From: an uncultured Actinomycetota bacterium
GTDB lineage: Bacteria > Actinomycetota > Actinomycetes > Propionibacteriales > Nocardioidaceae
Assembly (NCBI GenBank): GCA_963815825.1
Contig: CAWFII010000016.1
Span: forward strand, 14,932-78,931
Length of the DNA stretch: 64,000 bases
Reading direction: 5' to 3'
The position numbers and the translations under genes are program-made. The notes under the pieces were generated by a model. It saw only the letters and a list, made by a program, of their open reading frames with translations, was not told the DNA's origin and ran no database searches. This document shows positions 33,250-60,463 of the stretch, in pieces (position 1 is the first letter of the stretch; each line of letters starts with the position of its first letter).

Positions 33250-33280
33250 GGCTCGATGGTCCCTGACAGCCCCTTCCGCT

Positions 33281-34648
33281 TGTAACGCGGGGTTATGGAC
33301 CGTAGACCCGCGGTGTACGCCGCACTACCAGTCCACTGCCCCGCACCAGATCATCGAGGGCGCGAGGCGGTAGGGCCCGAGGCGGTACGGCCCGAGGCGG
33401 TGACGGCTCAGCGCGGTGACGGCTCAGGCGCGCCGGCGCAGACGCTGGCCCTCGAGCTCGCGGGCGGTGCGAGCGAGCCGATCGGGGAGCACGTCGCCGA
33501 AACGAGCGACGGTCACGGCGTACTCCGCGAGCAGGCGGGCCCTGGCGCGGGCCCGAGCAGCTCCGAAGAGGTCGTCCCACACCAGCCGGGACATGCCCAG
33601 CCCCTGGGCGCAGATCTCCTGCTGGCGCCTCTTCTCCTCCCAGACGACGTCCCCCGCAGGGCGTAGGGCGAAGCCGCCCTGCTCGGGCCTGGAGTACTTC
33701 ACCCGGCCGTCGAACTCGAAGACGTGACAGCCGACCCTCAGGTCGGTCCAGTAGACGCGACCCCCCACCCGGACGGGGAACTGGGTGTGCGGCTCGCCGA
33801 TCCCGAGCTCGTGGACGAGCAGCCGGGAGAGTGACTCACCAGGCGTCTCGGCCCCCGCATCGGCCAACGCGACAGCGGCGCGCGCGACCGTGATCCCGGG
33901 CCAGGACCGCTGCCCGGCCAGCTCAGCGTGGAGGTCGAGCACGGAGAGGCCGTGTGCGAGCGCATGGTCCGCGGCCACCAGCGCGTGTCCGAGCCCGTGC
34001 TCGCGACCGAGATCGACGACCGTGCGCGCCACACCTGTGACGGGGAGCATGCCGGCCACCGCGAGGGTCGGGATGCGTTTGCCGAGGTGGTGCTTCACGC
34101 CGTGCTCGGTGCGTGAACCGCCCACCCCGGGGCGGGTGATGTGCACCAGCGGGTGCCGTGGCCGGAGCAGTGGCAGTCCGTGCGATCGCGCCGCGGAGTC
34201 GTGGCTCAGCATGTGCGGCTGGGTCATCGTCAGGTGCGCGGCGCGGTCACGCAGCGCCATCTGCCCGGTGTGCGCGTCGAGCGCCTCCCAGGTCGTCCGC
34301 TCGACATAGACGCCGCGGCGGACGACGACCCACGCGCCGTCGACGGCCGTGAGCGTCTTCAGCTCACGCTCCGAGTAGTCGGCCTCGACGGCCTGGCGCC
34401 GGGACACCAGGCCCCCCTGGCGTGCCGCCACTGCGGCGAGGTGCGGTCTCATCCCGGCAGCGTCGTGCCGCGTGGGGAGGCTGGTCGAGGCCAGTCCCTG
34501 TGGTGTGCAGCGGGTACGCCGACCCGGTCCCTGTGGACGCGAGCCGGCGACACGCGTGACGTCCGGCTCGACACCCGATCTCCTGCGGTGTTGTGGACCG
34601 TGAGTGCGTCGTACGCGACGTGTGCACGGTCCATAACCCCGCGTTACA
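33281..34648. mobile_element. Putative non-canonical mobile unit: AbiEi/DUF559-like gene bounded by 23-bp perfect inverted repeats
   Basis: TGTAACGCGGGGTTATGGACCGT at 33281-33303 and its exact reverse complement at 34626-34648. No transposase and no clear target-site duplication. Confidence 0.55.
33424..34452 (-). CDS. AbiEi-antitoxin-N-terminal-like / DUF559-type nuclease-domain protein, copy 1
   Basis: N-terminal wHTH-like QGGLVSRRQA...WVVVRRGVY, LSHDSAA, VTGVARTVVDL, AETPGES, C-terminal TDL...EFDGRVKY. Confidence 0.8.
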   Translation of the reverse strand: MRPHLAAVAARQGGLVSRRQAVEADYSERELKTLTAVDGAWVVVRRGVYVERTTWEALDAHTGQMALRDRAAHLTMTQPHMLSHDSAARSHGLPLLRPRHPLVHITRPGVGGSRTEHGVKHHLGKRIPTLAVAGMLPVTGVARTVVDLGREHGLGHALVAADHALAHGLSVLDLHAELAGQRSWPGITVARAAVALADAGAETPGESLSRLLVHELGIGEPHTQFPVRVGGRVYWTDLRVGCHVFEFDGRVKYSRPEQGGFALRPAGDVVWEEKRRQQEICAQGLGMSRLVWDDLFGAARARARARLLAEYAVTVARFGDVLPDRLARTARELEGQRLRRRA

Positions 34649-34669
34649 GCGGGGAGGCGAGCGGGGGGG

Positions 34670-59231: not shown

Positions 59232-59261
59232 CCGGTTTCCCCGGTCGGCCGGGGAAACCGG
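59232..59261. repeat. 13-bp perfect hairpin, adjacent to a degenerate GTTGTAC hairpin, upstream of AbiEi copy 2
   Basis: ccggtttccccgg-tcgg-ccggggaaaccgg; then gttgtacggcgatcc...ggatcgc. Confidence 0.7.
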
Positions 59262-59411
59262 GGGTTGTACGGCGATCCTTTGCCCCCCAACCCCGGGGAT
59301 CGCTGCTCCACCCCACCCCTTTTGCGTCCACACCCGGACACGGGCCGCGGCGGATCCCCAGATGATCCTTCCGTACGACGTACGCCCCGGCGCTGAGCCC
59401 ATCCTCGTCTC

Positions 59412-60362
59412 ATGCACGATGAACTTCGGTCGATCTGTGATGCCCATGGTGTCTTCCTGCGCCGCGACGCGCTCTGCTTGGGATACGACGACCGTGCGCT
59501 GTCCAGAACGATGAGGGCGGGCACGATCACCCGAATCCGTCACGGAGCCTACGTCTTCTCCGAGCGGTGGCGCGGCCTCGATGATCCCGGTCGGCACCTG
59601 CTCCGAGCGCGCGCCGTACTTCGAACCGCGCAGTCGCAGGTCGCGCTCTCGCACACGACGGCCCTGCTCGTGATGGGCGTACCGGTGTGGGATCTGTCCC
59701 TCGACGAGGTGCACCTCACGCGTCTCGATGGACGGGCAGGGCGTCGCGAAGCCGGCGTGGCGCAGCATCGCGGACGCATCATCCCTGGCGACGTTCGGGC
59801 TTGCGGCGAGCTCCTCGTCACCTCTCCGACACGCACCGCGCTCGACCTGACCACGATCACCGACGTCGAGCACTGCCTGCCCGTCGTGGATCACCTGCTG
59901 CACGACAAGGCGGTGACCAAGGCAGACCTGCGCACCCGTGCCGCAGGGATGACGTTCTGGCCGGGCACACTCGCGACAGACCTCACGATCCGCCTCGCTG
60001 ACGGTCGATCCGAGTCCGTCGGTGAATCAAGAGCCAGTCACCTGTTCTGGCGCGAAGGCCTGCCAAAGCCCCAGCTGCAATACGAGATCGTCAACGCTCG
60101 CGGCGAATGCGTCGCGAGAGTGGACTTCGCCTGGCCGGAGTACGGCGTCTTTCTGGAGTTCGACGGCAAGGCGAAGTACGAGAAGCTGCGGAAGGAACGC
60201 GAGTCGGTTCTGGACGTCGTACTCCGTGAGAAGAAGCGTGAGGAGATGATCTGTCGCCTCACCGGCTGGCGGTGCGTTCGCATCACGTGGGCCGATCTCT
60301 ACCAGCCGCACGCGACAGCCCGATACATCCGCTCGGTGCTCGCGGGCGGCCCAGTTCACTGA
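59412..60362 (+). CDS. AbiEi-antitoxin-N-terminal-like / DUF559-type nuclease-domain protein, copy 2
   Basis: HGVFLRRDA...IRHGAY, LSHTTA, VTSPTRTALDL, SESVGES, ARVDFAW...LEFDGKAKY; homologous to 33424-34452. Confidence 0.82.
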   Translation: MHDELRSICDAHGVFLRRDALCLGYDDRALSRTMRAGTITRIRHGAYVFSERWRGLDDPGRHLLRARAVLRTAQSQVALSHTTALLVMGVPVWDLSLDEVHLTRLDGRAGRREAGVAQHRGRIIPGDVRACGELLVTSPTRTALDLTTITDVEHCLPVVDHLLHDKAVTKADLRTRAAGMTFWPGTLATDLTIRLADGRSESVGESRASHLFWREGLPKPQLQYEIVNARGECVARVDFAWPEYGVFLEFDGKAKYEKLRKERESVLDVVLREKKREEMICRLTGWRCVRITWADLYQPHATARYIRSVLAGGPVH

Positions 60363-60377
60363 GACAAGTCGGATGGA

Positions 60378-60425
60378 GTTGTGCACCGATCCCTGTCCCT
60401 GTGGGGTGAAGTTTCGGTGCACAAC
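60378..60425. repeat. REP-like hairpin GTTGTGCACCGA...TCGGTGCACAAC downstream of AbiEi copy 2
   Basis: 12-bp perfect arms with a 24-nt loop. Confidence 0.75.
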
Positions 60426-60463
60426 GTCAGGATTCACCGGTCAGCCGGGGAAACCTGCGTCGG

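What the first reader, a model, noticed from the sequence alone, without database searches (positions are those of the whole stretch)
59232..60425. Second AbiEi-like gene with its own flanking hairpins and the same 9-mer exactly 79 nt upstream
Seen: copy 2 is flanked by GTTGT(A/G)C-ended hairpins (59264-59297 degenerate; 60378-60425 with 12-bp perfect arms) that differ in sequence from those of copy 1. Both genes carry GCGTCCACA on the sense strand ending exactly 79 nt before the ATG (34540-34532 and 59324-59332), although the proteins are clearly diverged. TCCACA resembles the core of an actinobacterial DnaA box. Inference: a conserved cis-element for autoregulation or replication-linked control, and element-specific hairpins co-evolving with each protein.
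Basis: partly seen in the sequence, partly recalled or inferred. Interest (0 to 1): 0.62.

Follow-up and report, generated by a model that had tools for sequence, protein, structure and literature searches.

The report
DnaA-box promoter on palindrome-bracketed nuclease gene
The shared 9-letter motif is real: it is one of two sites resembling the replication initiator's binding site (DnaA box), held at fixed distances in front of a large family of palindrome-bracketed nuclease genes and of unrelated DNA-handling genes, which suggests these genes are wired to chromosome replication.

Summary
GCGTCCACA ends 79 nt before both ATGs because it is the distal of two conserved boxes. TCCACA starts at about -85 and -58. 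The proximal consensus is GTTnTCCACAGG, which fits the DnaA-box consensus. In 78 Nocardioidaceae loci, 53 carry the -58 box and 17 the -85 box. A second subfamily carries one inverted box (rc GTTATCCACAGG) at about -48. The same boxes occur at this genome's dnaA/oriC region. They also precede DUF4192, DUF222-HNH, SSB-like, ComF-like and ParA-like genes. They persist in a genome with no detectable member of the nuclease family. A host factor, most likely DnaA, is therefore a better candidate binder than the encoded protein.

The "element-specific hairpins" are arms of dispersed palindromic repeat families, one per paralogue. Inverted copies bracket promoter plus ORF in 60 of 68 nuclease loci and in 0 of 28 control loci. 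Each repeat family co-occurs across genomes with its own paralogue. The whole block is missing from the same site in two relatives.

The protein has an AbiEi-like DNA-binding part fused to a Vsr-like nuclease fold. The genome has no AbiEii toxin and no RAYT. The scan had noted both features before on other genomes. I found no publication. Binding and transcript starts are untested.

The parts
59232..59261 (+). Hairpin A, outer part of the upstream arm (CCGGTTTCCCCGG-TCGG-CCGGGGAAACCGG). It belongs to a dispersed family with 23 copies in this genome at up to 3 mismatches.
   Evidence: dG -19.4, z -5.3
59264..59291 (+). Decayed hairpin B of the same repeat unit (family consensus GTTGTCGGGCGAAGCATCACCCCACAAC).
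   Evidence: z -0.4: not a significant hairpin here
59292..59323 (+). Tail of the repeat unit (..GGGGATCGC..CCACCCC..CCCTTTT). Homology to the dispersed copies runs up to the distal box.
   Evidence: alignment of about 20 dispersed copies
59324..59332 (+). Distal DnaA-box-like site GCGTCCACA of copy 2. TCCACA starts at -85 from the ATG. There is no canonical proximal box at -58 in this copy; TCCCCAG at -65 is off-register.
59400..59405 (+). -10-like hexamer CATCCT (nAnnnT), 6 nt before the ATG. No Shine-Dalgarno sequence precedes the ATG, so a leaderless start is inferred.
   Evidence: sequence; the same placement recurs in homologues; inference only, no transcript data
59412..60362 (+). Copy 2 gene, 316 aa: an AbiEi-like wHTH plus AbiEi C-domain fused to a Vsr-like PD-(D/E)XK nuclease fold.
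60378..60425 (+). Hairpin B' of the inverted downstream arm (GTTGTGCACCGA..TCGGTGCACAAC). The tail of this arm ends at the stop codon.
   Evidence: z -5.0
60430..60459 (+). Hairpin A' of the downstream arm, 4 nt after the stop codon of the convergent ABC ATPase gene.
   Evidence: z -4.4
33424..34452 (-). Copy 1 gene, 342 aa, 32% identical to copy 2.
34532..34540 (-). Distal box GCGTCCACA of copy 1 (TCCACA at -85). Its orthologues carry boxes at both -85 and -57.
34459..34464 (-). -10-like hexamer GACGCT, 6 nt before the ATG of copy 1.
   Evidence: sequence; inference
34577..34657 (-). Upstream arm of copy 1. It is itself a hairpin (GGGGTTATGGACCGTG..CACGGTCCACAAC) and belongs to a second dispersed family with 11 copies.
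33272..33352 (-). Downstream inverted arm of copy 1 (81 nt, 77% complementary to the upstream arm).

Best explanation
The 9-mer is the distal member of a two-box operator built into the promoter of this gene family.

Layout. In the canonical form, a strong proximal box (GTT[G/A]TCCACAGG, with TCCACA at -58) and a weaker distal box (..TTCGCGTCCACAGG, with TCCACA at -85) lie upstream of a -10-like hexamer placed 6-7 nt before the ATG. I infer from this that the mRNA is leaderless, which puts the boxes at about -57 and -85 from the transcript start.

Binder. The boxes match the DnaA-box consensus and this genome's own dnaA/oriC boxes, and they also precede unrelated genes. I therefore propose that the replication initiator DnaA, not the encoded protein, binds them. 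This would couple expression to DnaA and replication status. The sign of regulation is unknown. The 1-nt positional precision suggests a contact with RNA polymerase.

Cassette. The promoter plus ORF sits between inverted copies of a palindromic repeat unit that is specific to each paralogue and also scattered through the genome. The encoded AbiEi-like DNA binder fused to a Vsr-fold nuclease is the likely partner of its own repeat family, by analogy with REPIN-RAYT systems.

Shown here: motif conservation and position; motif identity with the oriC-region boxes; occurrence at unrelated genes; the bracket and its control; gene-repeat co-occurrence; the empty sites; the protein fold.

Inferred: DnaA binding, the leaderless start, the direction of regulation, and any nuclease action on the repeats.
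For: Position:
- Sense-strand TCCACA occurs in 27 of 30 loci of relatives, mostly as pairs 27-28 nt apart at about -85 and -58.
- 10 of 12 copy-1 orthologues have boxes at canonical positions.
- In 78 species-representative loci the positions peak sharply at -58 (53 of 78 within -62..-52) and at -85 (17 of 78). Almost none lie elsewhere within 240 nt.
- The proximal logo is gGTTnTCCACAGG, with the two T's conserved.
- The C8/C22 subfamily has a single inverted CCTGTGGAT(A/G)AC at about -48 in 24 of 29 loci.

Host factor:
- The dnaA-flanking region carries GTTGTCCACAGGT, TTTGTCCACAGGT and GTCGTCCACAGGA.
- 13 of 19 perfect TT[AG]TCCACA sites in the genome are followed by G, against 34% background, and most lie in non-coding-like sequence.
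- The same box lies at 57-58 or 85 nt before DUF222 (4 genes), DUF4192, SSB-family, ComF-like and ParA/CpaE-like (double box) genes, and at 88 nt before an HhH-GPD gene.
- DUF4192 genes of relatives carry the same double box.
- G040 has no family member at E<=0.01, yet its DUF4192 gene has two perfect boxes.
- Residues of the recognition helix and wing are group-specific.

Bracket:
- An inverted repeat (score >=20) links the flanks in 27/29, 12/12 and 21/27 nuclease loci, against 0/28 DUF4192 control loci, and in 75 of 78 further loci.
- The arms end just outside the box and the stop codon.
- Hairpin A is found almost only in genomes with a copy-2 orthologue, and the copy-1 hairpin tracks the copy-1 orthologue, with different distributions.
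- The block is syntenic in 7 genomes. It is absent, hairpins included, in G007 and G014.

Fold: AF2 pLDDT 92; AbiEi 6y8q and Vsr 1vsr/1cw0 at probability 1.0/0.98.
Against: - No binding or expression data exist.
- The window's own boxes (GCGTCCACA) match only TCCACA plus one flanking base of the 9-bp DnaA consensus, and both window copies lack the strong proximal box. DnaA control of these two particular genes may be weak or lost.
- Box centres at about -57 and -85 are not classical activator positions.
- The -10-like GAAGGT/GAGGGT before DUF4192 could instead be a Shine-Dalgarno sequence.
- The genome-wide distance histogram is modest: 8 hits at 56-58 nt, 3 of them near-identical DUF222 copies, and 3 of 60 permuted control motifs scored as high or higher because of repeats.
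- Co-occurrence counts come from related genomes and are not independent.
- Another factor with a DnaA-like specificity cannot be excluded.
Confidence: 0.58

Rival explanations
1. An unidentified transcription factor of Nocardioidaceae, not DnaA, recognises TTnTCCACAGG. It would control a regulon of DNA-transaction genes that includes these nuclease cassettes. On this reading the resemblance to DnaA boxes is partial mimicry or competition.
For: The trailing G(G) and the extended distal form CCGgTTCGCGTCCACAGG go beyond the 9-bp DnaA consensus. The fixed 1-nt geometry relative to the start codon is typical of dedicated activators.
Against: The dnaA/oriC-region boxes of this genome carry the same trailing GG. 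Position 3 varies (G/A/C/T), as in DnaA boxes. My literature searches turned up no candidate factor.
Confidence: 0.2
2. The boxes are an autoregulatory operator bound by the gene's own AbiEi-type winged helix, as AbiEi represses the abiE operon.
For: The N-terminal part matches AbiEi by Pfam and by fold. AbiEi antitoxins are known autorepressors that bind repeats in their promoters (established knowledge; Hampton et al. 2018, not re-read here).
Against: The same boxes at the same distances precede unrelated genes and flank dnaA. They persist in G040, which has no family member. The box is invariant across paralogues of 25-32% identity, whereas the recognition helix and wing differ between groups. 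The boxes are direct repeats or a single site, not AbiEi-type inverted repeats.
Confidence: 0.1
3. The box is chiefly a DNA-processing site: the inner terminus of the repeat arms, where the nuclease binds or cuts during copying of the repeat or cassette. Its promoter role would be secondary.
For: In the copy-2 family the dispersed 105-nt units run up to a decayed box (..CCGnTT[C/T]GTCC) and homology stops there. The inverted downstream arm also ends in ACTTGTC at the stop codon. Hairpin arms of the copy-1 superfamily contain GCGTCCACAAC / GGTCCACAAC.
Against: In copy 1 and many other loci the arm ends 10-40 nt outside the box. The C8-type repeat units contain no TCCACA. The box also occurs before genes that have no bracket (DUF4192: 0 of 28 bracketed).
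Confidence: 0.08
4. The 9-mer match is a coincidence between two GC-rich upstream regions.
For: GCGTCCACA occurs 40 times in the genome, about as often as composition predicts.
Against: The same offset in two paralogues has p of about 2e-3. The positional peak appears in 53 of 78 and 17 of 78 independent loci, against a background of about 1.3e-4 per position.
Confidence: 0.01

Closest known systems
DnaA acting as a transcription factor at DnaA boxes in promoters (E. coli dnaA, nrdAB, guaB, mioC; the B. subtilis DnaA regulon that responds to replication stress)
   Same: A 9-bp TTnTCCACA-type box, identical in form to the organism's oriC boxes, lies in the promoter regions of the initiator gene and of DNA-metabolism genes. 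Strong and weak boxes are paired.
   Different: The boxes sit at a fixed distance, to within 1 nt, from an apparently leaderless start. The targets are dominated by multi-copy nuclease cassettes (AbiEi-Vsr, DUF222-HNH) and DUF4192. I found no description of this for Actinobacteria. Binding is not shown.
REPIN-RAYT systems (REP-associated tyrosine transposase genes flanked by their cognate REP palindromes) of Proteobacteria
   Same: A single-copy, vertically inherited gene lies between inverted copies of a palindromic repeat that is also dispersed, often just after stop codons. There is one repeat family per paralogue, and gene and repeat family co-occur across genomes.
   Different: The enzyme is an AbiEi-like wHTH fused to a Vsr-fold PD-(D/E)XK nuclease, not an HUH/Y1 transposase. 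No Y1_Tnp gene was found in this genome. No activity on the repeats is shown.
AbiEi antitoxin of type IV AbiE toxin-antitoxin systems (S. agalactiae AbiEi, PDB 6y8q; M. tuberculosis Rv2827c)
   Same: The N-terminal winged helix plus the following domain match by Pfam (AbiEi_4) and by fold (Foldseek probability 1.0).
   Different: There is no AbiEii toxin next to the gene or anywhere in the genome. A C-terminal Vsr-like nuclease domain is added. The promoter carries DnaA-type boxes, not AbiEi inverted repeats.
Vsr endonuclease / DUF559 and Vsr-like homing endonucleases (for example I-Bth0305I)
   Same: The C-terminal approximately 120-140 residues have the Vsr fold (1vsr, 1cw0). D238, E249 and K255 are invariant and D251 is nearly invariant, in a D..ExDG..K motif. 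The gene block is present or absent at a fixed site in different genomes.
   Different: Pfam DUF559 does not reach significance for either window protein. The gene is not inserted within another gene or an intron. The bracket of dispersed palindromes has no counterpart in homing endonuclease genes.

Membership tests
DnaA box / DnaA-regulated promoter | A 9-bp site matching TT(A/G/T)TCCACA (relaxed actinobacterial form YYRTCCACA) | tested here: met
   The family proximal-box logo is gGTTnTCCACAGG, and perfect GTTGTCCACAG / GTTATCCACAG occur in many loci. The window's own sites (GCGTCCACA) match 7 of 9 positions of the strict consensus (TTGTCCACA) and 8 of 9 of the relaxed consensus.
DnaA box / DnaA-regulated promoter | The same motif is clustered at the organism's oriC / dnaA region | tested here: met
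   Nine or more boxes flank dnaA on contig C18 at about 74.3-76.6 kb. They have the same extended form, including the trailing GG.
DnaA box / DnaA-regulated promoter | DnaA protein binds the site and alters transcription | not testable with these tools
   This needs EMSA or footprinting, ChIP-seq and reporter assays.
AbiE type IV toxin-antitoxin system (AbiEi antitoxin) | An N-terminal AbiEi-type winged helix-turn-helix | tested here: met
   PF13338 scores 30.6 bits (cut-off 25) for copy 2 and 20.9 bits (below cut-off) for copy 1. Foldseek matches 6y8q at probability 1.0.
AbiE type IV toxin-antitoxin system (AbiEi antitoxin) | An adjacent, co-transcribed abiEii nucleotidyltransferase toxin gene | tested here: not met
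   The neighbours are hairpins, a convergent ABC ATPase gene and a divergent membrane-protein gene. PF08843 finds nothing in the genome, which is 91.6% complete.
REPIN-RAYT (REPtron) | The gene is flanked by inverted copies of a repeat family that is also dispersed in the genome | tested here: met
   At family level 60 of 68 loci are bracketed, against 0 of 28 controls, and 75 of 78 further loci.
REPIN-RAYT (REPtron) | The enzyme is an HUH Y1 (IS200/IS605-like) transposase | tested here: not met
   The fold is AbiEi plus Vsr. PF01797 was not found in the genome.
REPIN-RAYT (REPtron) | Gene and cognate repeat population co-occur and are vertically inherited | tested here: met
   Hairpin A counts are 23/45/33/19/17/9/8/5/4 in G000 and the eight genomes whose best copy-2 match is at least 48% identical (at least 54% in seven of them). 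Counts are 0-3 in the rest. The copy-1 hairpin has 18 copies in G007 (91% orthologue) and none in G013 or G018. Synteny holds in 7 or more and in 10 or more genomes for the two copies. The genomes are related, so these counts are not independent.
Vsr / DUF559 PD-(D/E)XK nucleases | Vsr-like fold with conserved acidic catalytic residues | tested here: met
   1vsr matches at probability 1.0 and 1cw0 at 0.98 over the C-terminal domain. D238 and D251 are nearly invariant; E249 and K255 are invariant. Catalysis was not tested.
Vsr / DUF559 PD-(D/E)XK nucleases | Significant match to Pfam PF04480 (DUF559) | tested here: not met
   There is no hit at E<=0.01 for either window protein. Only a different gene, at C13:57777-58019, matches.

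The most novel reading that the evidence does not exclude
Nocardioidaceae, and probably other Actinobacteria, may have an undescribed DnaA-controlled promoter class. It would place selfish or domesticated nuclease cassettes under control of the replication initiator. The cassettes are AbiEi-Vsr genes, each with its own dispersed palindrome family and acting as a RAYT-like 'caretaker' built on an unrelated enzyme. DUF222-HNH genes, DUF4192, an SSB paralogue and competence genes would belong to the same class. Repeat propagation and DNA transactions would then be timed to replication state.
Probability: 0.3. Interest if true: 0.85.

Novelty: new variant of a known kind. Interest (0 to 1): 0.66.

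Why it matters
This family has thousands of members and 2-9 copies per genome, and is annotated only as 'AbiEi antitoxin domain protein'. It has no known function and no toxin partner. Three results make its biology directly testable:
- Its promoter carries initiator-type boxes at single-nucleotide-fixed positions.
- The same boxes mark other DNA-handling genes.
- Each paralogue travels with its own dispersed palindrome family.

These give concrete experiments: DnaA EMSA and ChIP, reporter fusions, and nuclease assays on the cognate hairpins. If DnaA binds, this would be the first DnaA regulon described in Actinobacteria that I could find. It would also link replication control to the spread of REP-like repeats, whose origin in this phylum I found undescribed.

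Tried and rejected
- Box as a -35 element of a sigma-70-type or alternative-sigma promoter: rejected. No conserved -10 lies 16-19 nt downstream (information-content scans). The consensus scan finds no promoter. The C8 subfamily carries the box inverted.
- Structured RNA or riboswitch leader: no Rfam match at E<=1.
- Intrinsic terminators: none by consensus. The hairpins lack T-tracts, though many dispersed copies sit 3-15 nt after stop codons.
- Cassette inversion between species: I first misread locus orientation. After correcting for strand, all seven syntenic loci have the same orientation, so there is no evidence of flipping here.
- Copy 2's 'second box' ATCCCCAG: it lies at -65, not at the canonical -58, so I dropped it as a box.
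- Sequence search against solved structures gave nothing useful. Only the fold search was informative.
- Genome-wide histogram of box-to-start distance: it peaks at 57 and 85, but the peaks rest on few independent genes and some permuted control motifs score as high. I treat it as supportive only.
- Literature: no paper holds both DUF559 and AbiEi. Searches for an actinobacterial DnaA regulon or TCCACA promoter class found nothing relevant. These searches were not exhaustive.
Full report
**Observation**

GCGTCCACA lies at 59324-59332 on the + strand and at 34540-34532 on the - strand. In both cases 79 nt separate it from the ATG (59412 and 34452). The ORFs are 316 and 342 aa and share 32% identity. 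The ATG of copy 2 is unambiguous, because the frame opens only 15 nt upstream.

The downstream hairpin at 60378-60425 is real: 12-bp perfect arms, z -5.0.

The 9-mer is not rare in the genome: 40 copies against about 47 expected. The case therefore rests on position and conservation.

**The motif is conserved and positional**

The genome is 3.77 Mb, 70% GC and 43 contigs. The closest named relatives are Nocardioides and Marmoricola.

tblastn finds four full paralogues. There is also a decayed one and one true Pfam-DUF559 gene.

- In 30 loci from 41 related genomes, 27 carry TCCACA on the sense strand. Most have two boxes 27-28 nt apart, at about -85 and -58.
- Ten of 12 copy-1 orthologues have boxes at canonical positions.
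- In 78 further loci, one per species, positions peak at -58 (53 of 78 within -62..-52) and at -85 (17 of 78). Almost nothing else lies within 240 nt, and only three boxes are antisense.
- The proximal logo is gGTTnTCCACAGG, with both T's conserved. This fits the DnaA-box consensus TTnTCCACA.
- The distal box is usually ..TTCGCGTCCACAGG.
- The other subfamily (paralogues on C8 and C22) has a single inverted box, CCTGTGGAT(A/G)AC = rc GT(T/C)ATCCACAGG, at about -48 in 24 of 29 loci.

'Exactly 79 nt' is therefore the canonical distal position. Both window copies have lost the proximal box. Copy 2's TCCCCAG lies at -65 and is off-register.

**Promoter geometry**

A hexamer of the form nAnnnT sits 6-7 nt before the start codon: CATCCT in copy 2, GACGCT in copy 1, CATGNT in the C8 set and TAGAAT before DUF222. 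A conserved GGGCA lies at -16..-12. No Shine-Dalgarno sequence is evident.

From this, and from the known frequency of leaderless mRNAs in Actinobacteria, I infer leaderless transcription. The boxes would then be centred near -57 and -85 from the transcript start.

There is no conserved -10 at sigma-70 spacing after the box. There is no Rfam family and no consensus promoter or terminator.

**Who binds the boxes?**

- The dnaA gene is flanked by boxes of the same extended form: GTTGTCCACAGGT, TTTGTCCACAGGT and GTCGTCCACAGGA.
- Of 19 perfect TT[AG]TCCACA sites in the genome, 13 are followed by G, and most lie in non-coding-like sequence.
- The same box lies 57-58 or 85 nt before unrelated genes: four DUF222 genes, DUF4192, an SSB-family paralogue, a ComF-like gene and a ParA/CpaE-like gene with a double box at 85/57. 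An HhH-GPD gene has it at 88 nt.
- DUF4192 genes of relatives carry the same double box.
- G040 is 99% complete and has no member of the nuclease family at E<=0.01. Its DUF4192 gene still has GTTGTCCACAGG and GTTATCCACAG.
- The recognition helix and wing of the wHTH differ between paralogue groups, while the box does not.

Together these points favour a host factor with DnaA specificity over autoregulation by the encoded protein. The genome-wide distance histogram is only modestly above the permuted controls. I treat the regulon as supported mainly by the comparative data.

**The hairpins**

All flanking repeats belong to dispersed families.

For copy 2 the unit is about 105 nt. It comprises hairpin A, hairpin B (GTTGTCGGGCGAAGCATCACCCCACAAC) and a tail that ends in a decayed box (..CCGnTT[C/T]GTCC). 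This genome has about 20 copies, many starting 3-15 nt after a stop codon.

Copy 2 lies between one unit (59232 to about 59329) and an inverted unit (60459 back to the stop codon).

Copy 1 lies between 81-nt inverted arms of a second family. The C8 and C22 paralogues lie between inverted tandem arrays of about 32-nt units.

An inverted repeat links the two flanks in 27/29, 12/12 and 21/27 nuclease loci, against 0/28 DUF4192 control loci from the same genomes, and in 75 of 78 further loci. The arms end just outside the box and just after the stop codon.

**Co-occurrence and mobility**

Hairpin A (up to 3 mismatches) has 23, 45, 33, 19, 17, 9, 8, 5 and 4 copies in G000 and the eight genomes whose best match to copy 2 is at least 48% identical (at least 54% in seven of them). 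The remaining genomes have 0-3 copies.

The copy-1 hairpin has 18 copies in G007, which holds a 91% orthologue and no hairpin A. It has none in G013 or G018, which lack the orthologue but hold 19 and 33 copies of hairpin A. This is a double dissociation, although the genomes are related and so not independent.

The copy-2 block lies between the same ABC ATPase and membrane-protein genes in seven genomes, in one orientation. In G007 and G014 those genes are 105 and 12 nt apart, with no hairpins between them. The indel is therefore the whole block 59232-60459.

**The protein**

The AF2 model has pLDDT 92. Foldseek matches AbiEi (6y8q) over the first approximately 195 residues and Vsr (1vsr, 1cw0) over the C-terminal domain.

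D238, E249 and K255 are invariant and D251 is nearly invariant. The genome holds no AbiEii toxin and no Y1 transposase. The protein is therefore neither an AbiE antitoxin nor a RAYT.

**Comparison and novelty**

The operator works like DnaA-regulated promoters. The cassette resembles REPIN-RAYT systems but uses an unrelated enzyme.

I found no paper describing either feature. Earlier notes of this scan describe both the bracket and a DnaA-box promoter class on other genomes. I used them as leads and re-tested the claims here.

**Verdict**

The cis-element is real and conserved. It is most likely a DnaA-type site (confidence about 0.6). The hairpins are arms of paralogue-specific dispersed repeats. 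Binding, transcript start and nuclease activity remain to be shown.

Noticed in passing
G000 contigs C23:~15785(-), C25:~28525(+), C25:~9494(-), C12:~3(+): Three near-identical 444-455-aa DUF222 (13E12-type, HNH-like) genes, plus a fourth diverged one, each carry a perfect GTTGTCCACAGAT box 57 nt before the ATG and a TAGAAT hexamer 6 nt before it. They look like a second multi-copy nuclease element using the same promoter class.
   Followed up: partly
G000 contig C40:16863-16891(-): A double box (TAGTGTCCACAGGC and TCCGGTCCACAGTG) lies at 85 and 57 nt before a 356-aa ParA/CpaE-like ORF. The geometry is the same as in the nuclease family.
   Followed up: partly
G000 contig C4:32184-32571: Three tandem copies (period 179 nt) of a segment that each contain a full hairpin A + B + tail unit. 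The dispersed unit has been amplified in tandem together with flanking sequence.
   Followed up: no
G000 contigs C13:50237-50328, C14:15121-15212, C27:11114-11205: A-B-A' doublets without a gene: two hairpin A copies flank one hairpin B (GTTGTGCACGGAAACTTCGGTGCACAAG). The C13 and C14 copies have identical flanks, so they may be an assembly duplicate.
   Followed up: no
G000 contig C8:~81.4-82.9 kb (locus L079) and orthologues L080-L085, L095: In this orthologue group the inverted tandem arrays enclose the nuclease gene plus a 58-aa ORF on the opposite strand (MSKLNEDRVAQANKYAKLPAQIRPEDM...). The ORF has no Pfam match. The downstream arm lies about 135-315 nt after the stop codon in all of these loci.
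   Followed up: partly
No associated nuclease paralogue was identified in this genome.
   Followed up: no
window 33357-33430: Between the stop codon of copy 1 and its downstream arm lie short tandem repeats: three 15-nt units (AGGGCGCGAGGCGGT-like) and two 16-nt-spaced units (GCGGTGACGGCTCAG).
   Followed up: no
G000 contig C13:57777-58019(-): This is the only gene in the genome that matches Pfam DUF559. It is bracketed by two direct copies of a palindromic unit (TGCCGCCTGAAACGGC.GAACGCCC.ACGAAC..) and has an inverted GGGCTGTGGACGG upstream.
   Followed up: partly
G023:C22:103765-104711 (locus L008): The copy-2 orthologue in G023 is split into two frames (residues 1-233 and 230-316). It is probably a frameshifted pseudogene that still keeps both boxes and 17 hairpin A copies in its genome.
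   Followed up: no
G000 contigs C18:24721-24806, C2:60373-60416, C23:54490-54534, C27:150282-150349: Clusters of 3-5 DnaA-type boxes lie away from dnaA. They could be DnaA-titrating sites or further regulated promoters. The neighbouring genes were not identified.
   Followed up: no
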